Shown piece after piece: positions 1-64,000 of a DNA stretch of 64,000 nucleotides. The notes below the pieces were generated by a model. The model made no database searches and was not told the DNA's origin. It saw only the letters and a list, made by a program, of their open reading frames with translations. Both the position numbers and the translations under genes were made by a program. Numbering within the stretch: the stretch's first letter is position 1; each line of letters starts with the position of its first letter. Where the stretch lies: assembly GCA_964016885.1 (NCBI GenBank), contig OZ024743.1:129704001-129768000 (forward strand), in the 5' to 3' direction. This DNA comes from Eledone cirrhosa. Taxonomy: Eukaryota.

Positions 1-3000
1 AAACACCAAAGACCAAGCACCAAACACCAGACACCAAGCACCAAACACCAAGCACCAAGCACCAAACACCAAACAACAAGCACCAGGTACCAAGCACCAA
101 ACACCAAAAACCAAGCACCAAGCACCAAACACCAAGCACCAAGCACCAAACGCCAAACACCAAGCACCAAGCACCAAGCACCAAACACCAAGCACCAAGC
201 ACCAAACACCAAGCACCAATCACCAAGCACCAAACACCAAGCAGCAAGCAGCAAGCACCAAACACCAAACACCAAGCACCAAGCACTAAACACCAAGCAC
301 CAAGGACCAAACATCATACACCAAGCACCAAGCACCAAACACCTAACACCAAGCACCAAGCACCAAGCACCAAGCACCGAACACCAAGCACCAAACACCA
401 AGCACCAAACACCAAGCACCAAGCACCAAACACCAAGCACCAAACACCAAGTACCAAGCACCAAGCACCAAACACCAAGCACCAGGCACCAAGAACCAAA
501 CACCAAACACCATGGACCAAGCACCAAGCCCCAAACACTTAACACCAAGCACCAAGCACCAAACACCAAGCACCAAAAACCAAACACCAAGCACCAACTA
601 CTAAACACCAAGCACCAAGCACCAAACACCAAGCACCAAGCACCAATCACCAAACACCAAGAACCAAGCACCAAACACCAAGCACCAAGGACCAAGCACC
701 AGGCACCAAGCACCAAGCACCAAACACAAAACACCAAGCACCAAACACAAAACACCAAGCACCAAGGAGCAAACACCAAGCATCAAACACCAAACACCAA
801 ACACCAAGCACCAAACACCAAGCACCAAGCAGCAAACACCAAACACCAAGCACCAAGCACCAAGCACCAAACACCAAACACCAAGCACCAAACACCAGAC
901 ACCAAGCACCAAACACCAAGCACCAAGCACCAAGCACCAAACACCAAACAACAAGCACCAGGTACCAAGCACCAAACACCAAAAACCAAGCACCAAGCAT
1001 CAAACACCAAACCCCAAGCACCAATCACCAAACACTAATCACCAAGCACCAAGCACCAAACACCAAGCACCAAACAGCAAACCCCAAGCACCAATCACCA
1101 AATACTAATCACCAAGCACCAAGCACCAATCACCAAGCACCAAGCAGCAAGCACCAAACACCAAGCACCAAGCACTAAGCACCTAGCACCAAACACCAAG
1201 CACCAAGCACCAAACACCAAACCCCAAGCACCAAAGACCAAGCACCAAGCACCAAGGACCAAACACCAAGCACCAAGCACCAAGCACCAAACACCAAGCA
1301 CCAAGCACCAAACACCCAGCACCAGACACCAAGCACCAAACACCAAGCACCAAGCACCAAAAACCAAACAACAAGCACCAGGTACCAAGCACCAAAGACC
1401 AAAAACCAAGCACCAAGCAACAAACACCAAGCACCAAGCACCAAACGCCAAACACCAAGCACCAAGCACCAAGCACCAAACACCAAGCACCAAGCACCTA
1501 GCACCAAACACCAAACACCAAGCACCAAGCAGCAAACACCAAGCACCAATCACCAAGCACCAAACACCAAGCAGCAAGCAGCAAGCACCAAACACCAAAC
1601 ACCAAGCACCTAGGACCAAACATCATACACCAAGCACCAAGCACCAAACACCTAACACCAAGCACCAAGCACCAAGCACCAAGCACCGAACACCAAGCAC
1701 CAAACACCAAGCACCAAACACCAAGCACCAAGCACCAAACACCAAGCACCAAACACCAAGCACCAAGCACCAAGCACCAAACACCAAGCACCAGGCACCA
1801 AGCACCAAACACCAAACCCCAAGCACTAAAGACCAAGCACCAAGCACCAAGGACCAAACACCAAGCACCAAGCACCAAGCACCAAACACCAAGCACCAAG
1901 CACCAAACACCCAGCACCAAGCACCAAGCACCAAACACCAAGCACCAAGCACCAAACACCAAACACCAAACACCAGGCACCAAGCACCAAACAGCAAGCA
2001 CCAAACACCAAACACCAAACAGCAAACATCAAACAGCAAACACCAAACACCAAACAGCAAACAGCAAACGCCAAACACCAAGCACGAAGCACCAAGCACC
2101 AAACACCAAGCACCAAGCACCAAGCACAAAACACCAAACACCAAGCACCAAGGACCAAACATCAAACACCAAGCACCAAGCACCTAGCACAAAGCACCGA
2201 ACACCAAGCACCAAACACCAAGCACCAAACACCAAGCACCAAACACCAAACACCAGGCACCAAGCACCAAACACCAAGCACCATGCACCAAACACCAAGC
2301 ACCAAGCACCAAGCACCAAACACCAAGCACCAAACACCAAACACCAAGCACCAAGTACCAAACACCAAGCACCAAACACCAAACACCAAGCACCAAGCAC
2401 CAATCACCAAACACCAAGAACCAAGCACCAAACACCAAGCACCAAGCACCAAGTACATACACCAAGAACCAAACACCAAACACAAAACACCAAGCACCAA
2501 GCAACAAGCATCAAACACCAAGCATCAAACACCAAACACCAAGCACCAAACACCAAACACCAAGCACCAAGCACCAAGCACCAAGCACAAACATCAAGCA
2601 CCCAGCACCAAACACCAAGCACCAAGCACCAAGCACCAAACACCAAGCACCAAGCACCAAAACCCAAACACCAAGCACCAAGCACCAAACACCAAACACC
2701 AAACACCAGAAACCAAGCACCAAGCACCAAACACTAAGCACTAAGCACCAAACAGCAAACCCCAAGAACCAAGCACCAAACATTAATCACCAAGCACCAC
2801 ACAACAAGCACCAAGCACCAAGAACCAGGCACCAAGCACCAAGCACCAAACACAAAACACCAAGCACCAAGCACCAAGCAGCACACACCAAGCATCAAAC
2901 ACCAACCACCAAACACCAAGCACCAAACACCTAACACCAAGCACTAAGCACCAAGCACCAAGCACCAAACTCCAAGCACCCAGCACCAAACACCAAACAC

Positions 3001-4730
3001 CAAGCACCAAGCACCAAACACCAAACACCAAGCACCAAGCACCAAGCACCAAACACCAAAGACCAAGCACCAAACACCAGACACCAAGCACCAAACACCA
3101 AGCACCAAGCACCAAACACCAAACAACAAGCACCAGGTACCAAGCACCAAACACCAAAAACCAAGCACCAAGCACCAAAAACCAAGCACCAAGCACCAAA
3201 CGCCAAACACCAAGCACCAAGCACCAAGCACCAAACACCAAGCACCAAGCACCAAACACCAAGCACATATCACCAAGCACCAAACACCAAGCAGCAAGCA
3301 GCAAGCACCAAACACCAAACACCAAGCACCAAGCACTAAACACCAAGCACCAAGGACCAAACATCATACACCAAGCACCAAGCACCAAACACCTAACACC
3401 AAGCACCAAGCACCAAGCACCAAGCACCGAACACCAAGCACCAAACACCAAGCACCAAACACCAAGCACCAAGCACCAAACACCAAGCACCAAACACCAA
3501 GTACCAAGCACCAAGCACCAAACACCAAGCACCAGGCACCAAGAACCAAACACCAAGCACCATGGACCAAGCACCAAGCCCCAAACACTTAACACCAAGC
3601 ACCAAGCACCAAACACCAAGCACCAAAAACCAAACACCAAGCACCAACTACTAAACACCAAGCACCAAGCACCAAACCCCAAGCACCAAGCACCAATCAC
3701 CAAACACCAAGAACCAAGCACCAAACACCAAGCACCAAGGACCAAGCACCAGGCACCAAGCACCAAGCACCAAACACAAAACACCAAGCACCAAACACAA
3801 AACACCAAGCACCAAGCAGCAAACACCAAGCATCAAACACCAAACACCAAACACCAAGCACCAAACACCAAGCACCAAGCAGCAAACACCAAACACCAAG
3901 CACCAAGCACCAAGCACCAAACACCAAACACCAAGCACCAAACACCAGACACCAAGCACCAAACACCAAGCACCAAGCACCAAGCACCAAACACCAAACA
4001 ACAAGCACCAGGTACCAAGCACCAAACACCAAAAACCAAGCACCAAGCATCAAACACCAAACCCCAAGCACCAATCACCAAACACTAATCACCAAGGACC
4101 AAGCACCAAACACCAAGCACCAAACAGCAAACCCCAAGCACCAATCACCAAATACTAATCACCAAGCACCAAGCACCAATCACCAAGCACCAAGCAGCAA
4201 GCACCAAACACCAAGCACCAAGCACTAAGCACCTAGCACCAAACACCAAGCACCAAGCACCAAACACCAAACCCCAAGCACCAAAGACCAAGCACCAAGC
4301 ACCAAGGACCAAACACCAAGCACCAAGCACCAAGCACCAAACACCAAGCACCAAGCACCAAACACCCAGCACCAGACACCAAGCACCAAACACCAAGCAC
4401 CAAGCACCAAAAACCAAACAACAAGCACCAGGTACCAAGCACCAAAGACCAAAAACCAAGCACCAAGCAACAAACACCAAGCACCAAGCACCAAACGCCA
4501 AACACCAAGCACCAAGCACCAAGCACCAAACACCAAGCACCAAGCACCTAGCACCAAACACCAAACACCAAGCACCAAGCAGCAAACACCAAGCACCAAT
4601 CACCAAGCACCAAACACCAAGCAGCAAGCAGCAAGCACCAAACACCAAACACCAAGCACCAAGGACCAAACATCATACACCAAGCACCAAGCACCAAACA
4701 CCTAACACCAAGCACCAAGCACCAAGCACC
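1..4730 (+). repeat. 3,050-bp HOR (436 monomers, two of them 6 nt): one full copy plus about half of the next
   Basis: GGTACC at 86/961/1381 recurs at 3136/4011/4431. ORF-track offsets 314->3364, 601->3651 and 1095->4145 are all 3,050 = 436x7-2 (hexamers TACATA 2454, CACAAA 2586). Confidence 0.93.
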
Positions 4731-7280
4731 AAGCACCAAACACCAAGCACCAAGCACCAAACACCAAACCCCAAGCACCAAAGACCAAGCACCAAGCACC
4801 AAGGACCAAGCACCAAGCACCAAGCACCAAGCACCAAACACCAAGCACCAAGCACCAAACACCCAGCACCAAGCACCAAGCACCAAACACCAAGCACCAA
4901 GCACCAAACACCAAACACCAAGCACCAAGCACCAAACAGCAAGCACCAAACACCAAACACCAAACAGCAAACATCAAACAGCAAACACCAAACACCAAAC
5001 AGCAAACAGCAAACACCAAACACCAAGCACCAAACACCAAGCACCAAACACCAAGCACCAAGCACCAAGCACAAAACACCAAACACCAAGCACCAAGGAC
5101 CAAACATCAAACACCAAGGACCAAGCACCTAGCACAAAGCAACGAACACCAAGCACCAAACACCAAGCACCAAACACCAAACACCAAACACCAAACACCA
5201 GGCACCAAGCACCAAACACCAAGCACCATGCACCAAACACCAAGCACCAAGCACGAAGCACCAAACACCAAGCACCAAGCACCAAACACTTAACACCAAG
5301 CACCAAGCACCAAGCACCAAACACCAAGCACCAAACACCAAACACCAAGCACCAAGTACCAAACACCAAGCACCAAGCCCCAAACACCAAGCATCAAGCA
5401 CCAATCACCAAACACCAAGAACCAAGCACCAAACACCAAGCACCAAGCACCAAGTACATACACCAAGAACCAAACACCAAACACAAAACACCAAGCACCA
5501 AGCAACAAGCATCAAACACCAAGCATCAAACACCAAACACCAAGCACCAAGAACCAAACACCAAACACCAAACAGCAAGCACCAAGCACCAAACACCAAG
5601 CACCAAACACCAAACCCCAAGCACCAATCACCAAACACTAATCACCAAGCACCAAGCACCAAACACCAAGCACCAAGCAGCAAGCACCAAGCACCAAACA
5701 CCAAGCACCAAGCACCAAACACCAAACCCCAAGCACCAAAGAGCAAGCAACAAGCACCAAGGACGAAACACCAAGCACCAAGCACCAAGCACCAAACACC
5801 AAGCACCAAGCACCAAACACCCAGCACCAAGCACCAAACACCAAGCACCAAGCACCAAGCACCAAACACCAAACACCAAGCACCAAACACCAGACACCAA
5901 GCACCAAACACCAAGCACCAAGCACCAAACACCAACCACCCAGCACCAAACACCAAGCACCAAACACCAAGCACCAGGCACCAAGCACCAAACACCAAAC
6001 ACCAAGCACGCAGCATCAAACACCAAGCACCAAGCACCAAGCACCAAACACCAAGCACCAAGCACCAAGCACCAAGTACCAAACACCAAACACCAAGCAC
6101 CAAACACCAAACACCAAACAACAAGCACCAGGCACCAAGCACCAAACACCAAACACCAAGCACGCAGCACCAAACACCAAGCACGCAGCACCAAACACCA
6201 AGCACCAAGCACCAAGAACCAAACACCAAACACCATGAACCAAGCAGCAAGCACCCAACACCAAGCACCAAGCACCAAGCACCAAGCACCAAACACCAAG
6301 CACCAAGCACCAAACACCAAACACCAAGCACTAAGCACCAAAAACCAAACAACAAGCACCAGGCACCAAGCACCAAACACCAAACACCAAGCACGCAGCA
6401 CCAAACACCAAGCACCAAGCACCAAGAACCAAACACCAAACACCATGAACCAAGCAGCAAGCACCCAACACCAAGCACCAAGCACCAAGCACCAAGCACC
6501 AAACACCAAGCACCAAGCACCAAACACCAAACCCCAAGCACCAAAGACCAAGCACCAAGCACCAAGGACCAAGCACCAAGCACCAAGCACCAAGCACCAA
6601 ACACCAAGCACCAAGCACCAAACACCCAGCACCAAGCACCAAGCACCAAACACCAAGCACCAAGCACCAAACACCAAACACCAAGCACCAAGCACCAAAC
6701 AGCAAGCACCAAACACCAAACAACAAACAGCAAACATCAAACAGCAAACACCAAACACCAAACAGCAAACAGCAAACACCAAACACCAAGCACCAAACAC
6801 CAAGCACCAAACACCAAGCACCAAGCACCAAGCACAAAACACCAAACACCAAGCACCAAGGACCAAACATCAAACACCAAGGACCAAGCACCTAGCACAA
6901 AGCAACGAAAACCAAGCACCAAACACCAAGCACCAAACACCAAACACCAAACACCAAACACCAGGCACCAAGCACCAAACACCAAGCACCATGCACCAAA
7001 CACCAAGCACCAAGCACGAAGCACCAAACACCAAGCACCAAGCACCAAACACTTAACACCAAGCACCAAGCACCAAGCACCAAACACCAAGCACCAAACA
7101 CCACACACCAAGCACCAAGTACCAAACACCAAGCACCAAGCCCCAAACACCAAGCATCAAGCACCAATCACCAAACACCAAGAACCAAGCACCAAACACC
7201 AAGCACCAAGCACCAAGTACATACACCAAGAACCAAACACCAAACACAAAACACCAAGCACCAAGCAACAAGCATCAAAC
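4720..7280 (+). repeat. ~0.8-kb direct repeat at offset 1,763 bp flanking a divergent ~0.9-kb satellite segment
   Basis: ORF offsets 5107->6870 and 5290->7053 = 1,763 = 252x7-1. The middle segment carries variants not seen in the surrounding HOR (CACGCAG at 6007, 6161, 6182, 6392; GACGAAA ~5762). Confidence 0.8.
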
Positions 7281-7989
7281 ACCAAACACCAAGCACCAAG
7301 CACCAAGCACCAAACACCAAACACCAAGCACCAAACACCAGACACCAAGCACCAAACACCAAGCACCAAGCACCAAGCACCAAACACCAAACAACAAGCA
7401 CCAGGTACCAAGCACCAAACACCAAAAACCAAGCACCAAGCATCAAACACCAAACCCCAAGCACCAATCACCAAACACCAAGCACCAAACACCAAACACC
7501 AAACACCAGAAACCAAGCACCAAACACCAAACACCAAGCACCAAGCACCAAACACCAAGCACCAAGCACCAAACAGCAAACCCCAAGCACCAAGCACCAA
7601 ACACTAATCACCAAGCACCAAGCACCACACAACAAGCACCAAGCACCAAGAACCAGGCACCAAGCACCAAGCACCAAACACAAAACACCAAGCACCAAGC
7701 ACCAAGCAGCACACACCAAGCATCAAACACCAAACACCAAACACAAAGCACCAAACACCAAATACCAAGTACTAAGCACCAAGCACCAAGCACCAAACTC
7801 CAAGCACCCAGCACCAAACACCAAACACCAAGCACCAAGCACCAAACACCAAACACCAAGCACCAAGCACCAAGCACCAAACACCAAACACCAAGCACCA
7901 AACACCAGACACCAAGCACCAAACACCAAGCACCAAGCACCAAGCACCAAACACCAAACAACAAGCATCAGGTACCAAGCACCAAAAAC

Positions 7990-10900
7990 CAAGCACCAAG
8001 CATCAAACACCAAACCCCAAGCACCAATCACCAAACACTAATCACCAAGCACCACGCACCAAACACCAAGCACCAAACAGCAAACCCCAAGCACCAATCA
8101 CCAAACACTAATCACCAAGCACCAAGCACCAATCACCAAGCACCAAGCAGCAAGCACCAAACACCAAGCACCAAGCACCAAGCACCAAGCACCAAACACC
8201 AAGCACCAAGCACCAAACACCAAACCCCAAGCACCAAAGACCAAGCACCAAGCACCAAGGACCAAACACCAAGCACCAAGCACCAAGCAACAAACACCAA
8301 GCACCAAGCACCAAACACCCAGCACCAAGCACCAAGCACCAAACACCAAGCACCAAGCACCAAACACCAAACACCAAACACCAGGCACCAAGCACCAAAC
8401 AGCAAGCACCAAACACCAAACACCAAACAGCAAACATCAAACAGCAAACACCAAACACCAAACAGCAAACAGCAAACGCCAAACACCAAGCACGAAGCAC
8501 CAAGCACCAAACACCAAGCACCAAGCACCAAGCACAAAACACCAAACACCAAGCACCAAGGACCAAACATCAAGCACCAAACACCAAACACCAAGCACCA
8601 AGGACCAAACATCAAGCACCTAGCACAAAGCACCGAACACCAAGCACCAAACACCAAGCACCAAACACCAAGCACCAAACACCAAACACCAGGCACCAAG
8701 CACCAAACACCAAGCACCATGCACCAAACACCAAGCACCAAGCACCAAGCACCAAACACCAAGCACCAAACACCAAACACCAAGCACCAAGTACCAAACA
8801 CCAAGCACCAAACACCAAACACCAAGCACCAAGCACCAATCACCAAACACCAAGAACCAAGCACCAAACACCAAGCACCAAGCACCAAGTACATACACCA
8901 AGAACCAAACACCAAACACAAAACACCAAGCACCAAGCAACAAGCATCAAACACCAAGCATCAAACACCAAACACCAAGCACCAAACACCAAACACCAAG
9001 CACCAAGCACCAAGCACCAAGCACAAACATCAAGCACCCAGCACCAAACACCAAGCACCAAGCACCAAGCACCAAACACCAAGCACCAAGCACCAAAACC
9101 CAAACACCAAGCACCAAGCACCAAACACCAAACACCAAACACCAGAAACCAAGCACCAAGCACCAAACACTAAGCACTAAGCACCAAACAGCAAACCCCA
9201 AGCACCAAGCACCAAACATTAATCACCAAGCACCACACAACAAGCACCAAGCACCAAGAACCAGGCACCAAGCACCAAGCACCAAACACAAAACACCAAG
9301 CACCAAGCACCAAGCAGCACACACCAAGCATCAAACACCAACCACCAAACACCAAGCACCAAACACCTAACACCAAGCACTAAGCACCAAGCACCAAGCA
9401 CCAAACTCCAAGCACCCAGCACCAAACACCAAACACCAAGCACCAAGCACCAAACACCAAACACCAAGCACCAAGCACCAAGCACCAAACACCAAACACC
9501 AAGCACCAAACACCAGACACCAAGCACCAAACACCAAGCACCAAGCACCAAACACCAAACAACAAGCACCAGGTACCAAGCACCAAACACCAAAAACCAA
9601 GCACCAAGCACCAAACACCAAGCACCAAGCACCAAACGCCAAACACCAAGCACCAAGCACCAAGCACCAAACACCAAGCACCAAGCACCTAGCACCAAAC
9701 ACCAAACACCAAGCACCAAGCACCAAACACCAAGCACCAATCACCAAGCACCAAACACCAAGCAGCAAGCAGCAAGCACCAAACACCAAACACCAAGCAC
9801 CAAGCACTAAACACCAAGCACCAACGACCAAACATCATATACCAAGCACCAAGCACCAAACACCTAACACCAAGCACCAAGCACCAAGCACCAAGCACCG
9901 AACACCAAGCACCAAACACCAAGCACCAAACACCAAGCACCAAGCACCAAACACCAAGCACCAAACACCAAGCACCAAGCACCAAGCACCAAACACCAAG
10001 CACCAGGCACCAAGAACCAAACACCAAGCACCATGGACCAAGCACCAAGCCCCAAACACTTAACACCAAGCACCAAGCACCAAACACCAAGCACCAAAAA
10101 CCAAACACCAAGCACCAACTACTAAACACCAAGCACCAAGCACCAAACACCAAGCACCAAGCACCAATCACCAAACACCAAGAACCAAGCACCAAACACC
10201 AAGCACCAAGGACCAAGCACCAGGCACCAAGCACCAAGCACCAAACACAAAACACCAAGCACCAAACACAAAACACCAAGCACCAAGCAGCAAACACCAA
10301 GCATCAAACACCAAACACCAAACACCAAGCACCAAACACCAAGCACCAAGCAGCAAACACCAAACACCAAGCACCAAGCACCAAGCACCAAACACCAAAC
10401 ACCAAGCACCAAACACCAGACACCAAGCACCAAATACCAAGCACCAAGCACCATGCACCAAACACCAAACAACAAGCACCAGGTACCAAGCACCAAACAC
10501 CAAAAACCAAGCACCAAGCATCAAACACCAAACCCCAAGCACCAATCACCAAACACTAATCACCAAGCACCAAGCACCAAACACCAAGCACCAAACAGCA
10601 AACCCCAAGCACCAATCACCAAACACTAATCACCAAGCACCAAGCACCAATCACCAAGCACCAAGCAGCAAGCACCAAACACCAAGCACCAAGCACCAAG
10701 CACCAAGCACCAAACACCAAGCACCAAGCACCAAACACCAAACCCCAAGCACTAAAGACCAAGCACCAAGCACCAAGGACCAAACACCAAGCACCAAGCA
10801 CCAAGCACCAAACACCAAGCACCAAGCACCAAACACCCAGCACCAAGCACCAAGCACCAAACACCAAGCACCAAGCACCAAACACCAAACACCAAACACC

Positions 10901-13000
10901 AGGCACCAAGCACCAAACAGCAAGCACCAAACACCAAACACCAAACAGCAAACATCAAACAGCAAACACCAAACACGAAACAGCAAACAGCAAACGCCAA
11001 ACACCAAGCACGAAGCACCAAGCACCAAACACCAAGCACCAAGCACAAAACACCAAACACCAAGCACCAAGGACCAAACATCAAACACCAAGCACCAAGC
11101 ACCTAGCACAAAGCACCGAACACCAAGCACCAAACACCAAGCACCAAACACCAAGCACCAAACACCAAACACCAGGCACCAAGCACCAAACACCAAGCAC
11201 CATGCACCAAACACCAAGCACCAAGCACCAAGCACCAAACACCAAGCACCAAACACCAAACACCAAGCACCAAGTACCAAACACCAAGCACCAAACACCA
11301 AACACCAAGCACCAAGCACCAATCACCAAACACCAAGAACCAAGCACCAAACACCAAGCACCAAGCACCAAGTACATACACCAAGAACCAAACACCAAAC
11401 ACAAAACACCAAGCACCAAGCAACAAGCATCAAACACCAAGCATCAAACACCAAACACCAAGCACCAAACACCAAACACCAAGCACCAAGCACCAAGCAC
11501 CAAGCACAAACATCAAGCACCCAGCACCAAACACCAAGCACCAAGCACCAAGCACCAAACACCAAGCACCAAGCACCAAAACCCAAACACCAAGCACCAA
11601 GCACCAAACACCAAACACCAAACACCAGAAACCAAGCACCAAGCACCAAACACTAAGCACTAAGCACCAAACAGCAAACCCCAAGAACCAAGCACCAAAC
11701 ATTAATCACCAAGCACCACACAACAAGCACCAAGCACCAAGAACCAGGCACCAAGCACCAAGCACCAAACACAAAACACCAAGCACCAAGCACCAAGCAG
11801 CACACACCAAGCATCAAACACCAACCACCAAACACCAAGCACCAAACACCTAACACCAAGCACTAAGCACCAAGCACCAAGCACCAAACTCCAAGCACCC
11901 AGCACCAAACACCAAACACCAAGCACCAAGCACCAAACACCAAACACCAAGCACCAAGCACCAAGCACCAAACACCAAAGACCAAGCACCAAACACCAGA
12001 CACCAAGCACCAAACACCAAGCACCAAGCACCAAACACCAAACAACAAGCACCAGGTACCAAGCACCAAACACCAAAAACCAAGCACCAAGCACCAAACA
12101 CCAAGCACCAAGCACCAAACGCCAAACACCAAGCACCAAGCACCAAGCACCAAACACCAAGCACCAAGCACCAAACACCAAGCACCAATCACCAAGCACC
12201 AAACACCAAGCAGCAAGCAGCAAGCACCAAACACCAAACACCAAGCACCAAGCACTAAACACCAAGCACCAAGGACCAAACATCATACACCAAGCACCAA
12301 GCACCCAACACCTAACACCAAGCACCAAGCACCAAGCACCAAGCACCGAACACCAAGCACCAAACACCAAGCACCAAACACCAAGCACCAAGCACCAAAC
12401 ACCAAGCACCAAACACCAAGTACCAAGCACCAAGCACCAAACACCAAGCACCAGGCACCAAGAACCAAACACCAAACACCATGGACCAAGCACCAAGCCC
12501 CAAACACTTAACACCAAGCACCAAGCACCAAACACCAAGCACCAAAAACCAAACACCAAGCACCAACTACTAAACACCAAGCACCAAGCACCAAACACCA
12601 AGCACCAAGCACCAATCACCAAACACCAAGAACCAAGCACCAAACACCAAGCACCAAGGACCAAGCACCAGGCACCAAGCACCAAGCACCAAACACAAAA
12701 CACCAAGCACCAAACACAAAACACCAAGCACCAAGGAGCAAACACCAAGCATCAAACACCAAACACCAAACACCAAGCACCAAACACCAAGCACCAAGCA
12801 GCAAACACCAAACACCAAGCACCAAGCACCAAGCACCAAACACCAAACACCAAGCACCAAACACCAGACACCAAGCACCAAACACCAAGCACCAAGCACC
12901 AAGCACCAAACACCAAACAACAAGCACCAGGTACCAAGCACCAAACACCAAAAACCAAGCACCAAGCATCAAACACCAAACCCCAAGCACCAATCACCAA
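7990..13000 (+). repeat. Pair of ~2.5-kb HOR variants (period 2,483 bp; 2,490 bp in the duplicated copy near 19.7-24.7 kb)
   Basis: TACATA 8890->11373 = 2,483 = 355x7-2; 20586->23076 = 2,490 = 356x7-2. Identical 153-aa pseudo-ORFs at 8719/11202 and 20415/22905. Confidence 0.8.
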
Positions 13001-48900: not shown

Positions 48901-48990
48901 TAGCACCAAACACCAAGCACCAAGCACCAAACACCAAACCCCAAGCACCAAAGACCAAGCACCAAGCACCAAGGACCAAACACCAAGCAC
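42990..48990 (+). repeat. 3,001-bp HOR, two near-identical tandem copies
   Basis: Offsets 43080->46081, 43963->46964 and 45811->48812 are all 3,001 = 429x7-2. Shared variants CACCATG-CATCAAA (43966/46967), CACTAAG (44217/47218), CACCATA (45028/48029). Confidence 0.92.
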
Positions 48991-49162
48991 CAAGCACCAA
49001 GCACCAAACACCAAGCACCAAGCACCAAACACCCAGCACCAGACACCAAGCACCAAACACCAAGCACCAAGCACCAAACATCAAACAACAAGCACCAGGT
49101 ACCAAGCACCAAAGACCAAAAACCAAGCACCAAGCACCAAACACCAAGCACCAAGCACCAAA

Positions 49163-52100: not shown

Positions 52101-55100
52101 ACCAAACACCAAGCACCAAGCACCAAACACCAAGCACCAATCACCAAGCACCAAACACCAAGCACCATGCACCAAACACCAAGCACCAAATACCAAACAC
52201 CAAACACCTAGCACCAAGCACCAAACACCAAGCCCCAAGTACCAAGCACCAAACACCAAGCACCAAACACCAATCACCAAGCACCTAGCACCAAACACCA
52301 AACACCAAGCACCAAGCACCAAACACCAAGCACCAATCACCAAGCACCAAACACCAAGCACCATGCACCAAACACCAAACACCAAATACCAAACACGAAA
52401 CACCAAGCACCAAGCATCAAACACCAAGCACCAAGCACCAAACACCAAGCACCAAACACCAAACACCAAGCACCAAGCACGAAGCACCAAACACCAAGCA
52501 CCAGGCACCAAGCACCAAACACCAAGCACCAAGCACCAAACACCAAGCACCAAGCACCAAGCACAAAACACCAAACACCAAGCACCAAACACCTAACACC
52601 AAGCACCAAGCACCAAACACCAAGCAGCAAACACCAAACACCAAGCACCAAACACCAAGCACCAAACACCTAACACCAAGCACCAAGCACCAAGCACCAA
52701 ACACCAAGCAGCAAACACCAAACACCAAGCACCAAGCACCAAGCACCAAGCACCAAGCACCAAGCACCAAACACCATGCACCAAACACCAAGCACCAAGC
52801 ACCAAGCACCAAACACGAAGCACCAAGCTCCAAGCACCAAACACCAAGCTCCAAACACCAAACACCAAGAACAATGCACCAAACACCAAGCACTAAACAC
52901 CAAACACCAAACACCAAACACCAAGCAACAAGCACCAAACAACAAGCACCAGGCACCAAACACCAAGCACCAAGCACCAAACGCCAAGCACCAAACACCA
53001 AGCACCAAGCACCAAGCACTAAACACCAAATGGCAAACACCAAACACCAAACACAAAAAGCAAACACAAAACAACAAGCACCAATCACCAAACAACAAGC
53101 ACCAGGCACCAAGCACTAAACACCAAACAGCAAGCACCAAGCACCAATCACCAAACACCAAGCACCAAGCATCAAACACCAAGCACCAAGCACCAAGCAT
53201 CAAACACCAAACACCAAAGACCAAACACCAAATAGCAAAGACCAAACACGAAACAGCAAACACCATACAGCAAACACCAAACACCAAACAGCAAACAGCA
53301 AACACCAAGCACCAAGCACCAAACACCAAGTACCAAGCACCAAACACCAAGCACCAAGCACCAAACACCAAACCCCAAGCACCAAGTACCAAACACTAAT
53401 CACCAAGCACCAAGCACCAAGCACCAAATACCAAGCACCAAGCACCAAGCACCAAACACCAAACACCAAGCATGCAGCACCAAACACCAAGCACCAAGCA
53501 CCAAGCACCAAACACCAAGCACCAAGCACCAAACACCAAACACCGAACACCAAGCACCAAGCACCAAGCACCAAACACCAAACACCAAACACCAAGCACC
53601 AGACACCAAGCACCAAACACCAAACACCAAACACCAAGCGCCAAGCACCAATCACCAAACAACAAGCACCAAGCACCAAGCACCAAACACCAAGCACCAA
53701 AGACCAAAGACCAAACAGGAAACACCAAACACCAAACACCAAACACCAAACAGCAAACACCAAACACCAAACAGCAAACACCATACAGCAAACACCAAAC
53801 ACCAAAAAGCAGACAGCAAACAGCAAACACCAAACACCAAACACCAAACAGCAAACACCAAGCACCAAACACCAAGCACCAAGCACTGAACACCAAACCC
53901 CAAGCACAAAGCACCAAACACTAATCACCAAGCACCAAGCACCAAACACCAAGCACCAACCACCAAACACCAAGCACCAAGCACTAAACGCCAACCACCC
54001 AGCACCAAGCACCAAGGACCAAACACCAAGCACCAAAAACCAAACACCAAGCACCAGGCACCAAGCACCAAGCACCAAACACCAAGCCCCAAGCACCAAG
54101 CACCAAGCACCAAACAACAAGCACCAAACACCTAGCACCAATCACCAAACGCCAACCACCCAGCACCAAGCACCAAGCACCAAACACCAAACACCAAACA
54201 CCAAGCACCAAGCACCAAGCACCAAACACCAAGCCCCAAGTACCAAGCACCAAACACCAAGCACCAAACACCAAGCACCAAGCACCAAGCACCTAGCACC
54301 AAACACCAAACACCAAGCACCAAGCACCAAACAACAAGCACCAATCACCAAGCACCAAACCCCAAGCAGCAAGCAGCAAGCACCAAACACCAAACACCAA
54401 GCACCAAGCACCGAACACCAAGCACCAAGCACCAAACACCTAACACCTTACACCAAGCACCAAGCACCAAACACCAAGCACCAAGCACCAAACACCAAGC
54501 ACCAAGCACCAAGCACCAAACACCAAACACCAAACACCAAGCACCAAGCACCAAACACCAAGCACCAATCACCAAGCACCAAGCACCAAGCACCAAACAC
54601 CAAGAACCAAGCACCAAGCACCAAACACCAAGTACAAACACCATGCACCAAGCACCAAACACCAAACACCAAGCACCAAGCACCAAGCACCAAGCATCAA
54701 ACACCAAGCATCAAAAACCAGACACCAAACACCAAGCACCAAACACCAAGCACCCTGCACCAAACACCAAGCACCAATCACCAAGCACCAAACACGAAGC
54801 ACCAAGCTCCAAGCACCAAACACCAAGCACCAAACACCAAACACCAAGCACCATGCACCAAGCACCAAACACCAAACACCAAGCACCAAGCACCAAACAC
54901 CAAACACCAAGCACTAAACACCAAGCACCAAGCACCAAACAACAAGCACCAGGCACCAAACACCAAGCACCAAGCACCAAACGCCAAGCACCAAACACCA
55001 AACACCAAGCCCCAAGTACCAAGCACCAAACACCAAGCACCAAACACCAGGCACCAAGCACCTAGCACCAAACACCAAACACCAAGCACCAAGCACCAAA

Positions 55101-58100
55101 CACCAAGCACCAATCACCAAGCACAAAAAACCAAGCACCATGCACCAAACACCAAGCACCAAATACCAAACACCAAACACCTAGCACCAAGCACCAAACA
55201 CCAAGCCCCAAGTACCAAGCACCAAACACCAAGCACCAAACACCAATCACCAAGCACCAAGCACCAAACACCAAGCACCAATCACCAAGCACCAAACACC
55301 AAGCACCATGCACCAAACACCAAGCACCAAATACCAAACACGAAACACCAAGCACCAAGCATCAAACACCAAGCACCAAGCACCAAACACCAAGCACCAA
55401 ACACCAAACACCAAGCACCAAGCACCAAGCACCAAACACCAAGCACCAAGCACCTAGCACCAAACACCAAACACCAAGCACCAAGCAGCAAACACCAAGC
55501 ACCAATCACCAAGCACCAAACACCAAGCAGCAAGCAGCAAGCACCAAACACCAAACACCAAGCACCAAGCACCAAACACAAAGCACCAAGGACCAAACAT
55601 CATACACCAAGCACCAAGCACCAAACACCTAACACCAAGCACCAAGCACCAAGCACCAAGCACCGAACACCAAGCACCAAACACCAAGCACCAATCACCA
55701 AGCACCAAACACCAAGCACCATGCACCAAACACCAAGCACCAAATACCAAACACGAAACACCAAGCACCAAGCATCAAACACCAAGCACCAAGCACCAAA
55801 CACCAAGCACCAAACGCCAAACACCAAGCACCAAGCAGCAAACACCAAACACCAAGCACCAAGCACCAAGCACCAAACACCAAACACCAAGCACCAAACA
55901 CCAGACACCAAGCACCAAACACCAAGCACCAAGCACCAAGCACCAAACACCAAACAACAAGCACTAGGTACCAAGCACCAAACACCAAAAACCAAGCACC
56001 AAGCATCAAACACCAAACCCCAAGCACCAATCACCAAACACCAATCACCAAGCACCAAGCACCAAACACCAAGCACCAAACAGCAAACCCCAAGCACCAA
56101 TCACCAAACACTAATCACCAAGCACCAAGCACCAATCACCAAGCACTAAGCACCAAGCACCAAACACCAAGCACCAAGCACCAAACACCAAACCCCAAGC
56201 ACCAAAGACCAAGCACCAAGCACCAAGGACCAAACACCAAGCACCAAGCACCAAACACCCAGCACCAAGCACCAAGCACCAAACACCAAGCACCAAGCAC
56301 CAAACACCAAACACCAAACAGCAAACATCAAACAGCAAACACCAAACACCAAACAGCAAACAGCAAACGCCAAACACCAAGCACGAAGCACCAAGCACCA
56401 AACACCAAGCACCAAGCACCAAGCACAAAACACCAAACACCAAGCACCAAGGACCAAACATCAAACACCAAGCACCAAGCACCTAGCACAAAGCACCGAA
56501 CACCAAGCACCAAACACCCAGCACCAAACACCAAACACCAAACACCAGCACCAAGCACCAAACACCAAGCACCATGCACCAAACACCAAGCACCAAGCAC
56601 CAAGCACCAAACACCAAGCACCAAACACCAAACACCAAGCACCAAGTACCAAACACCAAGCACTAAACACCAAACACCAAGCACCAAGCACCAATCTCCA
56701 AACACCAAGAACCAAGCACCAAACACCAAGCACCAAGCACCAAGTACATACACCAAGAACCAAACACCAAACACAAAACACCAAGCACCAAGCAACAAGT
56801 ATCAAACACCAAGCATCAAACACCAAACACCAAACACCAAACACCAAGCACCAAGCACCAAGCACCAAGCACAATCATCAAGCACCCAGCACCAAACACC
56901 AAGCACCAAGCACCAAGCACCAAACACCAAGCACCAAACACCAAACACCAAGCACCAAACACCAAACACCAAGCACCAAGCCCCAAAACCCAAACACCAA
57001 GCACCAAGCACCAAACACCAAACACCAAACACCAGAAACCAAGCACCAAACACCAAATACGAAACACCAAACACCAAGCACCAAACACTAAGCACCAAGC
57101 ACCAAACAGCAAATCCCAAGCACCAAGCACCAAACATTAATCACCAAGCACCACACAACAAGCACCAAGCACCAAGAACCAGGCACCAAGCACCAAGCAC
57201 CAAACACAAAACACCAAGCACCAAGCACCAAGCACCAAACACCAAACACCAAGCACCAGACACCAAGCACCAAGCACCAATCACCAAACAACAAGCACCA
57301 AGCACCAAACACCAAACACCAAACACCAGGCACCAGACACCAAGCACCAAGCACCAATCACCAAACAACAAGCACCAAGCACCAAACACCAAACACCAAG
57401 CACCAAGCACCAAACACCAAACACCAATCACCAAGCACCAAACACCAATCACCAAAGACCAAAGACCAAACAGGAAACACCAAACACCAAACAACAAACA
57501 GGAAACACCAAACACGAAACAGCAAACACCATACAGCAAACACCAAACACCAAAAAGCAGACAGCAAACAGCAAACACCAAACACCAAACACCAAGCACC
57601 AATCACCAAACACCAAGTACCAAGCACCAAACACCAAGCACCAAGCACCAAACACCAAACACCAAGCACCAAACACCAAGCACCAAGCACCAAGCGACAA
57701 ACACCAAGCACCAAGCACCAAGCACCAAACGCCAACCACCCAGCACCAAGCACCAAGCACCAAACACCAAGCACCAAGCACCAAACACCAAGCCCCAAAC
57801 ACCAAGCACCAAGCACCAAACACCAAGCACCAAGCACCAAACACCAAGCACCAAGCACCAAATGCCAACCACCCAGCACCAAGTACCAAGCACCAAACAC
57901 CAAACACCAAACACCAAGCACCAAGCACCAAACACCAAGCCCCAAGTACCAAGCACCAAACACCAAGCACCAAACACCAGGCACCAAGCACCTAGCACCA
58001 AACACCAAACACCAAGCACCAAGCACCAAACACCAAGCACCAATCACCAAGCACCAAACACCAAGCACCATGCACCAAACACCAAGCACCAAATACCAAA

Positions 58101-61100
58101 CACCAAACACCTAGCACCAAGCACCAAACACCAAGCCCCAAGTACCAAGCACCAAACACCAAGCACCAAACACCAATCACCAAGCACCTAGCACCAAACA
58201 CCAAACACCAAGCACCAAGCACCAAACACCAAGCACCAATCACCAAGCACCAAACACCAAGCACCATGCACCAAACACCAAACACCAAATACCAAACACG
58301 AAACACCAAGCACCAAGCATCAAACACCAAGCACCAAGCACCAAACACCAAGCACCAAACACCAAACACCAAGCACCAAGCACGAAGCACCAAACACCAA
58401 GCACCAGGCACCAAGCACCAAACACCAAGCACCAAGCACCAAACACCAAGCACCAAGCACCAAGCACAAAACACCAAACACCAAGCACCAAACACCTAAC
58501 ACCAAGCACCAAGCACCAAACACCAAGCAGCAAACACCAAACACCAAGCACCAAACACCAAGCACCAAACACCTAACACCAAGCACCAAGCACCAAGCAC
58601 CAAACACCAAGCAGCAAACACCAAACACCAAGCACCAAGCACCAAGCACCAAGCACCAAGCACCAAGCACCAAACACCATGCACCAAACACCAAGCACCA
58701 AGCACCAAGCACCAAACACGAAGCACCAAGCTCCAAGCACCAAACACCAAGCTCCAAACACCAAACACCAAGAACAATGCACCAAACACCAAGCACTAAA
58801 CACCAAACACCAAACACCAAACACCAAGCAACAAGCACCAAACAACAAGCACCAGGCACCAAACACCAAGCACCAAGCACCAAACGCCAAGCACCAAACA
58901 CCAAGCACCAAGCACCAAGCACTAAACACCAAATGGCAAACACCAAACACCAAACACAAAAAGCAAACACAAAACAACAAGCACCAATCACCAAACAACA
59001 AGCACCAGGCACCAAGCACTAAACACCAAACAGCAAGCACCAAGCACCAATCACCAAACACCAAGCACCAAGCATCAAACACCAAGCACCAAGCACCAAG
59101 CATCAAACACCAAACACCAAAGACCAAACACCAAATAGCAAAGACCAAACACGAAACAGCAAACACCATACAGCAAACACCAAACACCAAACAGCAAACA
59201 GCAAACACCAAGCACCAAGCACCAAACACCAAGTACCAAGCACCAAACACCAAGCACCAAGCACCAAACACCAAACCCCAAGCACCAAGTACCAAACACT
59301 AATCACCAAGCACCAAGCACCAAGCACCAAATACCAAGCACCAAGCACCAAGCACCAAACACCAAACACCAAGCATGCAGCACCAAACACCAAGCACCAA
59401 GCACCAAGCACCAAACACCAAGCACCAAGCACCAAACACCAAACACCGAACACCAAGCACCAAGCACCAAGCACCAAACACCAAACACCAAACACCAAGC
59501 ACCAGACACCAAGCACCAAACACCAAACACCAAACACCAAGCGCCAAGCACCAATCACCAAACAACAAGCACCAAGCACCAAGCACCAAACACCAAGCAC
59601 CAAAGACCAAAGACCAAACAGGAAACACCAAACACCAAACACCAAACACCAAACAGCAAACACCAAACACCAAACAGCAAACACCATACAGCAAACACCA
59701 AACACCAAAAAGCAGACAGCAAACAGCAAACACCAAACACCAAACACCAAACAGCAAACACCAAGCACCAAACACCAAGCACCAAGCACTGAACACCAAA
59801 CCCCAAGCACAAAGCACCAAACACTAATCACCAAGCACCAAGCACCAAACACCAAGCACCAACCACCAAACACCAAGCACCAAGCACTAAACGCCAACCA
59901 CCCAGCACCAAGCACCAAGGACCAAACACCAAGCACCAAAAACCAAACACCAAGCACCAGGCACCAAGCACCAAGCACCAAACACCAAGCCCCAAGCACC
60001 AAGCACCAAGCACCAAACAACAAGCACCAAACACCTAGCACCAATCACCAAACGCCAACCACCCAGCACCAAGCACCAAGCACCAAACACCAAACACCAA
60101 ACACCAAGCACCAAGCACCAAGCACCAAACACCAAGCCCCAAGTACCAAGCACCAAACACCAAGCACCAAACACCAAGCACCAAGCACCAAGCACCTAGC
60201 ACCAAACACCAAACACCAAGCACCAAGCACCAAACAACAAGCACCAATCACCAAGCACCAAACCCCAAGCAGCAAGCAGCAAGCACCAAACACCAAACAC
60301 CAAGCACCAAGCACCGAACACCAAGCACCAAGCACCAAACACCTAACACCTTACACCAAGCACCAAGCACCAAACACCAAGCACCAAGCACCAAACACCA
60401 AGCACCAAGCACCAAGCACCAAACACCAAACACCAAACACCAAGCACCAAGCACCAAACACCAAGCACCAATCACCAAGCACCAAGCACCAAGCACCAAA
60501 CACCAAGAACCAAGCACCAAGCACCAAACACCAAGTACAAACACCATGCACCAAGCACCAAACACCAAACACCAAGCACCAAGCACCAAGCACCAAGCAT
60601 CAAACACCAAGCATCAAAAACCAGACACCAAACACCAAGCACCAAACACCAAGCACCCTGCACCAAACACCAAGCACCAATCACCAAGCACCAAACACGA
60701 AGCACCAAGCTCCAAGCACCAAACACCAAGCACCAAACACCAAACACCAAGCACCATGCACCAAGCACCAAACACCAAACACCAAGCACCAAGCACCAAA
60801 CACCAAACACCAAGCACTAAACACCAAGCACCAAGCACCAAACAACAAGCACCAGGCACCAAACACCAAGCACCAAGCACCAAACGCCAAGCACCAAACA
60901 CCAAACACCAAGCCCCAAGTACCAAGCACCAAACACCAAGCACCAAACACCAGGCACCAAGCACCTAGCACCAAACACCAAACACCAAGCACCAAGCACC
61001 AAACACCAAGCACCAATCACCAAGCACAAAAAACCAAGCACCATGCACCAAACACCAAGCACCAAATACCAAACACCAAACACCTAGCACCAAGCACCAA

Positions 61101-64000
61101 ACACCAAGCCCCAAGTACCAAGCACCAAACACCAAGCACCAAACACCAATCACCAAGCACCAAGCACCAAACACCAAGCACCAATCACCAAGCACCAAAC
61201 ACCAAGCACCATGCACCAAACACCAAGCACCAAATACCAAACACGAAACACCAAGCACCAAGCATCAAACACCAAGCACCAAGCACCAAACACCAAGCAC
61301 CAAACACCAAACACCAAGCACCAAGCACCAAGCACCAAACACCAAGCACCAAGCACCTAGCACCAAACACCAAACACCAAGCACCAAGCAGCAAACACCA
61401 AGCACCAATCACCAAGCACCAAACACCAAGCAGCAAGCAGCAAGCACCAAACACCAAACACCAAGCACCAAGCACCAAACACAAAGCACCAAGGACCAAA
61501 CATCATACACCAAGCACCAAGCACCAAACACCTAACACCAAGCACCAAGCACCAAGCACCAAGCACCGAACACCAAGCACCAAACACCAAGCACCAATCA
61601 CCAAGCACCAAACACCAAGCACCATGCACCAAACACCAAGCACCAAATACCAAACACGAAACACCAAGCACCAAGCATCAAACACCAAGCACCAAGCACC
61701 AAACACCAAGCACCAAACGCCAAACACCAAGCACCAAGCACCAAGCACCAAACACCAAGCACCAAGCACCTAGCACCAAACACCAAACACCAAGCACCAA
61801 GCAGCAAACACCAAGCACCAATCACCAAGCACCAAACACCAAGCAGCAAGCAGCAAGCACCAAACACCAAACACCAAGCACCAAGCACCAAACACAAAGC
61901 ACCAAGGACCAAACATCATACACCAAGCACCAAGCACCAAACACCTAACACCAAGCACCAAGCACCAAGCACCAAGCACCGAACACCAAGCACCAAACAC
62001 CAAGCACCAAACACCAAGCACCAAGCACCAAACACCAAGCACCAAACACCAAGCACCAAGCACCAAGCACCAAACACCAAGCACCAGGCACCAAGCACCA
62101 AACACCAAGCACCATGGACCAAGCACCAAGCCCCAAACACTTAACACCAAGCACCAAGCACCAAACACCAAGCACCAAAAACCAAACACCAAGCACCGAC
62201 TACTAAACACCAAGCACCAAGCACCAAACACCAAGCACCAAGCACCAATCACCAAACACCAAGAACCAAGCACCAAACACCAAGCACCAAGGACCAAGCA
62301 CCAGGCACCAAGCACCAAGCACCAAACACAAAACACCAAGCACCAAACACAAAACACCAAGCACCAAGCACCAAGCAGCAAACACCAAGCATCAAACACC
62401 AAACACCAAACACCAAGCACCAAACACCAAGCACCAAGCAGCAAACACCAAACACCAAGCACCAAGCACCAAGCACCAAACACCAAACACCATGCACCAA
62501 ACACCAGACACCAAGCACCAAACACCAAGCACCAAGCACCAAGCACCAAACACCAAACAACAAGCACTAGGTACCAAGCACCAAACACCAAAAACCAAGC
62601 ACCAAGCATCAAACACCAAACCCCAAGCACCAATCACCAAACACCAATCACCAAGCACCAAGCACCAAACACCAAGCACCAAACAGCAAACCCCAAGCAC
62701 CAATCACCAAACACTAATCACCAAGCACCAAGCACCAATCACCAAGCACTAAGCACCAAGCGCCAAACACCAAGCACCAAGCACCAAACACCAAACCCCA
62801 AGCACCAAAGACCAAGCACCAAGCACCAAGGACCAAACACCAAGCACCAAGCACCAAACACCCAGCACCAAGCACCAAGCACCAAACACCAAGCACCAAG
62901 CACCAAACACCAAACACCAAACACCAAGCACCAAGCACCAAACAGCAAGCACCAAACACCAAACACAAAACAGCAAACATCAAACAGCAAACACCAAACA
63001 CCAAACAGCAAACAGCAAACGCCAAACACCAAGCACGAAGCACCAAGCACCAAACACCAAGCACCAAGCACCAAGCACAAAACACCAAACACCAAGCACC
63101 AAGGACCAAACATCAAACACCAAGCACCAAGCACCTAGCACAAAGCACCGAACACCAAGCACCAAACACCCAGCACCAAACACCAAACACCAAACACCAG
63201 CAGCAAGCACCAAACACCAAGCACCATGCACCAAACACCAAGCACCAAGCACCAAGCACCAAACACCAAGCACCAAACTCCAAACACCAAGCACCAAGTA
63301 CCAAACACCAAGCACTAAACACCAAACACCAAGCACCAAGCACCAATCTCCAAACACCAAGAACCAAGCACCAAACACCAAGCACCAAGCACCAAGTACA
63401 TACACCAAGAACCAAACACCAAACACAAAACACCAAGCACCAAGCAACAAGTATCAAACACCAAGCATCAAACACCAAACACCAAACACCAAACACCAAT
63501 CACCAAGCACCAAGCACCAAACACCAAGCACCAATCACCAAGCACCAAACACCAAGCACCATGCACCAAACACCAAGCACCAAATACCAAACACGAAACA
63601 CCAAGCACCAAGCATCAAACACCAAGCACCAAGCACCAAACACCAAGCACCAAACACCAAACACCAAGCACCAAGCACCAAGCACCAAACACCAAGCACC
63701 AAGCACCTAGCACCAAACACCAAGCACCAAACACCAGGCACCAAGCACCTAGCACCAAACACCAAACACCAAGCACCAAGCACCAAACACCAAGCACCAA
63801 TCACCAAGCACAAAAAACCAAGTACCAAGCACCAAACACCAAGCACCAAACACCAGGCACCAAGCACCTAGCACCAAACACCAAACACCAAGCACCAAGC
63901 ACTAAACACCAAGCACCAATCACCAAGCACAAAAAACCAAGCACCAAGCACCAAACACCAAGCCCCAAGTACCAAGCACCAAACACCAAGCACCAAACAC
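49163..64000 (+). repeat. Distal HOR: unit 1 49,163-55,814 (6,652 bp), unit 2 55,815-61,717 (5,903 bp), unit 3 from 61,718 (internally deleted)
   Basis: CGCCAAA anchors at 49163, 55815, 61718. Offsets 50159->56111 = 5,952; 50425->56328 through 55454->61357 = 5,903; 49215->61770 = 12,555. Unit 2 lacks 700+49 bp; unit 3 lacks ~4,302 bp. Confidence 0.9.
51330..55440 (+). repeat. More diverged satellite subfamily block (second copy ~57,233-61,343)
   Basis: Monomers not seen left of 51 kb: CAGGAAA, AAGCAGA, CGACAAA, TGCCAAC, TGGCAAA, TAGCAAA, AACAATG, CACCTTA, CACCCTG, CACTGAA. Lacks the GGTACC, CCATGG and TACATA landmarks of the 3-kb HOR. Confidence 0.88.

What the first reader, a model, noticed from the sequence alone, without database searches (positions are those of the whole stretch)
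1..64000. A 7-bp CACCAAR satellite with multi-level higher-order organisation
Seen: a two-state heptamer organised at several nested scales (7 bp, 42-420 bp modules, 1.2-1.8 kb, 2.5-6.7 kb HORs, 11.7-13.5 kb super-HOR) with near-identical neighbouring copies. Established: HORs with locally homogenised layers typify centromeric satellites such as primate alpha satellite (171 bp) and Arabidopsis CEN178. Inference: this is the same architecture built from a microsatellite-sized monomer I do not recognise as a named family, so it is a candidate centromeric or heterochromatic satellite.
Basis: partly seen in the sequence, partly recalled or inferred. Interest (0 to 1): 0.72.

Follow-up and report, generated by a model that had tools for sequence, protein, structure and literature searches.

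The report
Single-chromosome 7-base megasatellite, likely octopus
This window is a small piece of a 14.6-million-base block of one 7-letter repeat on a single giant chromosome of a likely octopus; its nested spacings are real but likely record one-off copying events rather than a fixed higher-order unit, and the block likely flanks, rather than forms, that chromosome's centromere.

Summary
The repeat is real: 9,094 of 9,152 monomers are 7 bp and 70% are CACCAAG or CACCAAA. The reported spacings exist at 99.6-99.9% identity, against none in shuffles. They are not regular higher-order repeats: 21 clean tandem units in 104 kb have 17 different periods and 1.85-2.87 copies, and the 13.5-kb "super-HOR" covers only 5.2 kb. 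A hidden 28-bp rhythm underlies the G/A pattern. The block is a patchwork with one inversion junction copied at least 10 times and no layered core, like human HSat3. It is interleaved with 25-bp and AT-rich satellites found mid-chromosome elsewhere, and a gap-bounded 1.07-Mb piece placed at 205 Mb likely belongs in a gap inside it. Best reading: chromosome-specific, likely pericentromeric heterochromatin; CENP-A is untested. The scan found this block before on other windows (e1-10312968, -967, -942).

The parts
1..64000 (+). CACCAAR heptamer array, uninterrupted; 0.4% of a 14.60-Mb block (G000:C4:128,822,851 to about 143,422,340; window = C4:129,704,001-129,768,000)
1..4753 (+). end of a 3,050-bp unit run, 2.87 copies starting 3,989 bp upstream of the window, 99.81% identical; the longest clean run found
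53..4733 (+). stretch with an inverted paralogue 5.5 Mb away (C4:135,229,330-135,234,011), 98.1% of monomers identical
355..5571 (+). 5.2-kb segment copied 13,453 bp downstream at 99.88%; the source of the '13.5-kb super-HOR' (1.39 copies, not a tandem unit)
7476..13764 (+). segment copied 11,696 then 11,703 bp downstream (one-monomer shift); the source of the '11.7-kb' spacing
12324..15269 (+). tandem duplication, period 1,484 bp, 1.99 copies, 99.79%
35783..38274 (+). tandem duplication, period 1,229 bp, 2.03 copies, 99.68%
42179..42538 (+). tandem duplication, period 174 bp, 2.07 copies
42987..49030 (+). tandem duplication, period 3,001 bp, 2.01 copies, 99.80%
50391..61800 (+). youngest large tandem duplication, period 5,903 bp, 1.93 copies, 99.93%
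51330..54995 (+). second sub-family layer: mostly sequence with no earlier source in the window
51982..52396 (+). tandem duplication, period 196 bp, 2.12 copies (repeated at 57885-58299 inside the 5,903-bp copy)
61158..62024 (+). tandem duplication, period 413 bp, 2.10 copies, 99.56%

Best explanation
The window is part of a 14.6-Mb, single-chromosome block of a 7-bp satellite that likely grew by repeated one-off duplications of every size, some inverted, and likely forms heterochromatin flanking, not constituting, the centromere of chromosome C4. Shown: the block, its confinement to C4, the overlapping two-copy duplications, the copied inversion junction, and gap-free junctions with 25-bp and AT-rich satellites. 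Inferred: an ancestral 28-bp tetramer (two G-type, two A-type monomers) blurred by single-monomer slippage; out-of-register recombination or break-induced replication as the copying process; that the 1.07-Mb segment at C4:205.36-206.43 Mb belongs in the gap at 137.41 Mb; and that the 25-bp/AT-rich domain marks the centromere region. Untested: chromatin state and CENP-A.
For: Two-copy units with 17 periods; 64 kb parse into about 7.4 kb of new sequence plus 70 copy phrases. Similarity among 39 samples is unrelated to distance (rho 0.002, permutation p 0.46), and related samples recur megabases apart in both orientations. One convergent junction occurs at 10 sites, 8 in one orientation and 2 in the other; 9 of 10 share both flanks for hundreds of bases or more. 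About 96% of the family is in the block. A roughly 100-kb island, heptamer > AT-rich > 25-bp > heptamer, lies at 140.04-140.14 Mb with both junctions gap-free. The 137.41-Mb gap has heptamer on its left and 0.6 kb of 25-bp repeat on its right; the 205.36-206.43-Mb segment is gap-bounded, starts in heptamer and ends in 25-bp repeat in the fitting orientation, and 19,196 of its first 20,310 bp match the 21 kb before the gap at 99.56%. The 25-bp family lies mid-chromosome on C1, C2, C3 and C21 (0.57, 0.60, 0.44, 0.50 of length), gap-free at both ends on C21. Octopod C-bands are mostly centromeric (PMC6160780, passages).
Against: The 25-bp family was seen on only 5 chromosome-sized contigs plus unplaced ones, and at two places on C1, so it is not a proven centromere marker. 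C4 keeps another satellite-rich region at about 205-210 Mb without the moved segment (37-, 297-, 55-bp and TA repeats). The segment has no exact overlap with the gap flank, and two paralogues in the block match it at similar identity, 99.45-99.59%, though over less length, 15-16 kb; only a few percent of the block was compared and other gaps in it may exist. Interstitial C-bands also occur in octopods. No reads or chromatin data were examined.
Confidence: 0.52

Rival explanations
1. An interstitial heterochromatic block (knob) unrelated to the active centromere, built by the same duplication process; it captured pieces of 25-bp and AT-rich satellite, and C4's centromere lies elsewhere, for example at 205-213 Mb.
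For: Single locus; no layered core; a second satellite-rich domain near the middle of C4; the shared 25-bp family absent from most chromosomes in two searches; interstitial C-bands in octopods.
Against: Shared families meet the heptamer at four places in the block (137.41, 140.04-140.14, 142.44-142.48 Mb) and on C2; the largest 25-bp array assigned to C4 fits a gap inside the block.
Confidence: 0.33
2. The heptamer itself carries CENP-A and is the chromosome-specific functional centromere of C4.
For: Very long, nearly pure array (39 of 40 even samples satellite); ongoing turnover (99.93% duplication); heterogeneous HORs and families segregated by chromosome occur among candidate centromere satellites (atlas section 6).
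Against: Not shared across chromosomes; no homogeneous centre; frequent strand switches, which in humans typify HSat3B5 and beta satellite more than active HORs.
Confidence: 0.12
3. The nested order is an assembly artefact (false duplications of a simple repeat).
For: Scaffolding errors are likely nearby (gap-bounded 1.07-Mb segment); read support was not checked.
Against: Copies differ by graded amounts, 97.7-99.95%; paralogues megabases apart share diagnostic variants at lower identity; block ends are gap-free for 68 and 80 kb; the window has no N.
Confidence: 0.03

Closest known systems
Human HSat2/HSat3 arrays and their nested tandem repeats (bioRxiv 10.1101/2021.07.12.452052; passages read)
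   Same: Derived from a very short repeat; single-chromosome arrays of 12.7-27.6 Mb; kb-scale units whose period varies locally; many strand switches (HSat3B5).
   Different: Unrelated sequence (7-bp unit, not CATTC); monomers here stay discrete (99.4% are 7 bp), so the units are formally irregular HORs; most convergent switches found are copies of one junction; position relative to the centromere is unproven.
Heterogeneous-HOR satellites of the Arabidopsis type in the centromere atlas (bioRxiv 10.64898/2026.09.17.752431; abstract and sections 4 and 6 read)
   Same: Paired blocks of near-identical monomers with heterogeneous spacing and no long-range period.
   Different: 7-bp monomer against a mean of 140 bp; not shared on several chromosomes; no central peak of local duplication in 39 samples.
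Tribolium madens macro-dyad satellites (PMC13081366; abstract and passages read)
   Same: Conserved, multiplied inversion sites and conserved transition zones between interleaved satellites.
   Different: About ten copies about a megabase apart, not thousands; exact mirror only 20 bp and arms are not copies of each other; one chromosome, not all.
Drosophila virilis 7-bp satellites (bioRxiv 10.1101/693077; abstract read; AAACTAC from the listing)
   Same: Heptamer monomer with single-base variants; large heterochromatic amounts.
   Different: Different sequence; 0.5% of this genome against more than 40%; variants are interleaved monomer by monomer here.
Primate alpha-satellite regimented HORs
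   Same: Near-identical neighbouring multi-monomer blocks.
   Different: No fixed unit repeated many times, no layered symmetry, no array on each chromosome.

Membership tests
Regimented centromeric HOR satellite (alpha-satellite type) | a fixed multi-monomer unit repeated many times in tandem | tested here: not met
   21 units, 17 periods, at most 2.87 copies in 104 kb
Regimented centromeric HOR satellite (alpha-satellite type) | a large array on each chromosome | tested here: not met
   about 96% in one block; 11 of 11 rare-variant hits there; 37 of 40 junction hits on C4
Regimented centromeric HOR satellite (alpha-satellite type) | layered expansion: homogeneous core, symmetric divergent flanks | tested here: not met
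   divergence and local duplication unrelated to distance from the middle (rho -0.05, 0.004) in 39 samples of 6 kb, 360 kb apart; a core under about 360 kb could be missed
Any functional centromere | CENP-A occupancy or primary constriction | not testable with these tools
   no chromatin, Hi-C or cytological data available
HSat2/HSat3 (membership) | descent from (CATTC)n | tested here: not met
   monomer spectrum is CACCAAR; not a member, a working analogue only
HSat3-like simple-sequence megasatellite (works like) | short ancestral repeat with kb-scale nested units that change locally | tested here: met
HSat3-like simple-sequence megasatellite (works like) | multi-megabase chromosome-specific block with many strand switches | tested here: met
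   14.60 Mb; 11 forward and 28 reverse of 39 samples; 11 convergent and 4 divergent switches located
HSat3-like simple-sequence megasatellite (works like) | pericentromeric position | tested here: inconclusive
   interleaved with families of mid-chromosome domains, but those families are not shown to be centromeric
Atlas (CAP) satellite-centromere candidate | long contiguous, locally homogenised, gene-poor array | tested here: met
   39 of 40 samples pure heptamer; duplications 99.6-99.9%; genes were not annotated beyond that
Atlas (CAP) satellite-centromere candidate | shared on multiple chromosomes | tested here: not met
   outside C4 only about 90 kb on C2 and 1.1 kb each on C3 and C17 were found
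Atlas (CAP) satellite-centromere candidate | transposon enrichment or centrophilic elements | tested here: inconclusive
   one 2.15-kb element with identical 367-bp terminal repeats inside the block; its genome-wide distribution was not searched
Tribolium-type macro-dyad satellite | conserved, multiplied inversion sites | tested here: met
   one junction at 10 sites
Tribolium-type macro-dyad satellite | symmetric kb-scale arms on all chromosomes | tested here: not met
   exact mirror 20 bp in 9 of 10; one chromosome

The most novel reading that the evidence does not exclude
The block is the centromere domain of a giant octopod chromosome: a roughly 1-Mb core of 25-bp and AT-rich satellite, now mis-scaffolded 68 Mb away, sits between 8.6 and 6.0 Mb of a chromosome-private 7-bp satellite, with CENP-A on the core or spreading onto the heptamer. 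This would give a sequence-level map of a cephalopod centromere, none of which was found in the papers searched, and would suggest that each giant chromosome pairs a shared core with its own megasatellite.
Probability: 0.3. Interest if true: 0.62.

Novelty: new member of a known kind. Interest (0 to 1): 0.36.

Why it matters
The architecture is known: HSat3-like blocks and heterogeneous HORs are common. The sequence family appears undescribed, and no description of cephalopod centromeric DNA turned up in the searches. The block gives one FISH probe for one chromosome and a precise, testable prediction: a 1.07-Mb segment belongs in the 137.41-Mb gap. If so, a shared satellite core lies inside chromosome-private flanks and the assembly needs correcting. 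Because monomers stay in register, the G/A code also works as a clean record of duplication sizes from 28 bp to megabases.

Tried and rejected
Regular super-HOR: rejected. Pan-centromeric repeat: rejected. Layered centre: not seen. Fold-back palindrome at the junction: arms mirror exactly for only 20 bp; the strong predicted hairpin (-103 kcal/mol against about -4 within the array) follows from any strand switch in a simple repeat. Coding role: stops in all six frames, long stop-free runs only reflect low T content. Three-tier G-quadruplex motif: 0. My interim reading that the block lies 62 Mb from C4's 25-bp array was weakened when that array proved gap-bounded. First junction pattern found nothing. 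Sequencing runs: three runs of one sample hold 0.64-0.68 of the words and may be the assembly's source; other organisms hold 0.22 or less and six RNA runs 0.05-0.09; none was laid, so none is evidence, and read support for the duplication order is left open. Paper search was badly set (whole-word stem) and is not counted. One search found the doubled heptamer or CACCAAR in 15 papers, none on satellites by title or abstract start. Searches listed no cephalopod satellite or centromere sequence paper. Dfam and Repbase could not be searched. The atlas main text has 0 hits for octopus, cephalopod or mollus; its supplementary tables were not seen and could list this family.
Full report
Observation. 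The whole window is one tandem array of period 7, GC 0.49-0.51 with extreme strand skew. Alignment to the cyclic unit gives 9,152 monomers, 9,094 of them 7 bp; CACCAAG is 41.9%, CACCAAA 28.0%, and 87 other types make up the rest. Long near-identical segments are far above chance: 691 of >=25 monomers against 0 in 5 shuffles and 0 in 5 order-2 Markov sequences.

They are not regular higher-order repeats. Over 104 kb (window plus 20 kb each side) there are 21 clean tandem units with 17 different periods, from 119 to 5,903 bp, each present 1.85-2.87 times. The 13,453-bp lag covers 5.2 kb, and the 11,696 and 11,703-bp lags 3.6 and 2.8 kb. A diagnostic 6-bp monomer recurs at spacings from 174 to 6,652 bp. 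A greedy parse rebuilds the window from about 7.4 kb of new sequence and 70 copy phrases. I infer overlapping one-off duplications acting on a loose 2.4-3.5-kb ancestral unit. One level was missed: the G/A state correlates at lag 4 (r +0.27, positive in 39 of 39 samples), lag 8 (+0.13, 39 of 39) and negatively at lag 2, which points to an ancestral 28-bp tetramer (inference; the samples share ancestry and are not independent).

Host. The window is G000:C4:129,704,001-129,768,000 in a 3.0-Gb assembly; C4 is 378.8 Mb. Mitochondrial COX1 reads open under the invertebrate code. Haemocyanin genes have 7 beta-sandwich units each, and a unit scores 659 and 650 bits against single-unit chains 4yd9_C and 1js8_A but 460 and 372 against 8tnv and 1lnl (that the first two are squid and octopus and the others gastropods is recalled). 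Seven units are reported for Octopus and Nautilus, eight for Sepia and Loligo (PMC3945787, passages). So a cephalopod, likely an octopod.

Extent and distribution. The block runs from 128,822,851 to about 143,422,340 (14.60 Mb), with no gap in 68 kb left and 80 kb right of its ends. 39 of 40 evenly spaced 6-kb samples are heptamer, 11 forward and 28 reverse, averaging 52.0 three-monomer matches per kb. For 14.5 Mb that predicts 754,000 (bootstrap 701,000-796,000) of the 786,178 genome-wide matches, about 96% (89-101%). 11 of 11 rare double-variant monomers lie in the block. Outposts found: C2 250.86-250.93 and 251.13-251.15 Mb, C4 205.36-205.42 Mb, 1.1 kb each on C3 and C17, three or four monomers on C12 and C22. 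The one-array-per-chromosome test fails in this assembly.

Large-scale build. One convergent junction recurs at 10 sites between 130.4 and 142.9 Mb, 8 in one orientation and 2 in the other; 9 of 10 share both flanks for roughly 0.3-3.3 kb, and the exact mirror is only 20 bp. One other convergent and four divergent switches were located. The window's first 4.7 kb has an inverted paralogue 5.5 Mb away. Among 39 samples, sharing of informative words is unrelated to distance (rho 0.002, permutation p 0.46), and neither divergence (3.4-6.1%) nor local duplication changes with distance from the middle. This is a shuffled patchwork of large duplicated modules, not a layered core, at 360-kb resolution.

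Relation to possible centromere DNA. The heptamer joins, without gaps, a 25-bp satellite and an AT-rich 11-12-bp satellite: an island at 140.04-140.14 Mb in the order heptamer, AT-rich, 25-bp, heptamer; an AT-rich island at 142.44-142.48 Mb; and the C2 pieces. A tight 25-bp pattern gave 82 of 82 listed hits on C1 (251 Mb), C2 (247-251), C3 (163-169), C4 (140.1 and 205.5-206.4), C21 (17.6) and two high-numbered contigs; a variant pattern added C1 279 Mb and no further chromosome in the 100 of 128 listed. The AT-rich marker shares the C2 and C3 domains in the 100 of 294 listed. The C21 array is gap-free at both ends and at 0.50 of the length; the edges of the C1 array were not reached. At first this put C4's main 25-bp array 62 Mb from the block. 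But C4:205,362,691-206,427,690 is bounded by 200-N gaps, starts inside forward heptamer and ends inside reverse 25-bp repeat, next to unrelated sequence on both sides; the gap at 137,411,371 has forward heptamer on its left and reverse 25-bp repeat on its right. Its start matched the gap flank best of 118 tiles (0.236 against 0.187); further sampling showed the 20 kb before the gap to be the same layer (sharing up to 0.85), covering 19,196 of 20,310 bp at 99.56%, while two paralogues in the block cover 15,088 and 16,122 bp at 99.59% and 99.45%. There is no exact overlap, internal gaps of the segment were not checked, and other gaps in the block may fit. I infer that the segment likely belongs in the block, which would put about 1 Mb of the shared satellite between 8.6 and 6.0 Mb of heptamer. 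Against a centromere reading: the 25-bp family is on 5 chromosomes only, and C4 keeps other satellites at 205-210 Mb. Octopod C-bands are mostly centromeric but interstitial ones exist (PMC6160780, passages).

Mechanism. Shown: duplication products from about 0.1 kb to modules that carry inversion junctions and satellite transitions megabases apart. Inferred: slippage by whole monomers, out-of-register recombination or break-induced replication, which a 7-bp register permits anywhere, and passive copying of one old inversion scar. Role, inferred: constitutive heterochromatin, likely pericentromeric (0.52), otherwise interstitial (0.33), CENP-A-bearing heptamer (0.12), artefact (0.03).

Comparison and novelty. 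It works like human HSat3: short ancestral repeat, 13-28-Mb single-chromosome arrays, locally varying kb units, many strand switches (10.1101/2021.07.12.452052, passages); it is not a member, as the sequence is unrelated. Heterogeneous HORs are reported as prevalent among 263 satellite families (10.64898/2026.09.17.752431, abstract and sections 4 and 6). Multiplied inversion sites and transition zones are known in Tribolium madens (PMC13081366, abstract and passages), and 7-bp satellites in Drosophila virilis (10.1101/693077, abstract). I did not find this heptamer in print; Dfam, Repbase and the atlas supplements were not seen. Earlier notes of this scan describe the same block and junction from other windows; they are not independent support. 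The gap-fit of the 1.07-Mb segment and the 28-bp rhythm did not appear in the lines of those notes that I saw. Verdict: new member of a known kind, interest 0.36.

Noticed in passing
G000:C4:205,362,691-206,427,690 (L115, L145, L040, L146-L148): Gap-bounded 1.07-Mb segment whose two ends fit the gap at C4:137,411,371; likely a scaffolding misplacement.
   Followed up: yes
G000:C2:251,134,000-251,152,586 (L160-L162): Heptamer run that also ends at a 200-N gap; the heptamer/25-bp junction at C2:250.93 Mb is 99.8% identical over 585 bp to the one at C4:137.41 Mb. Part of the C2 domain may be misplaced too.
   Followed up: partly
L037:2855-5003 (C4 about 132.570-132.572 Mb): 2.15-kb insertion in the array with identical 367-bp terminal repeats and an apparent 4-bp target duplication; looks like a young non-autonomous LTR element.
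   Followed up: partly
G000:C26:22,009,706 and 21,939,424: In both C26 haemocyanin genes a weak beta-sandwich match with stops lies between the fourth and fifth units, near where cuttlefish have a duplicated unit d (PMC3945787); possibly a decayed eighth unit.
   Followed up: no
G000:C1:173.74-173.91 Mb and C26:21.93-22.02 Mb: At least five seven-unit haemocyanin genes, three in tandem on C1 and an inverted pair on C26, plus two more units on C27.
   Followed up: no
L004 (C4:127.000-127.003 Mb): Unrelated 28-bp satellite, 91% matches, 1.8 Mb left of the block.
   Followed up: no
L045:1996-7839 (C4 about 128.817-128.823 Mb): Four copies of a 1,476-bp unit directly at the block's left edge.
   Followed up: no
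L120-L123 (C4:206.5-209.5 Mb): Cluster of 37-bp, 297-bp, TA and 55-bp satellites: a second satellite-rich domain on C4.
   Followed up: partly
L042:3931-5008 (C17) and L044:4575-5703 (C3): Isolated 1.1-kb heptamer patches, the C17 one preceded by an A-rich tract; possible dispersed seeds of the family.
   Followed up: partly
G000:C2:115-345 Mb (L022): Seven COX1-like nuclear matches, all on C2.
   Followed up: no
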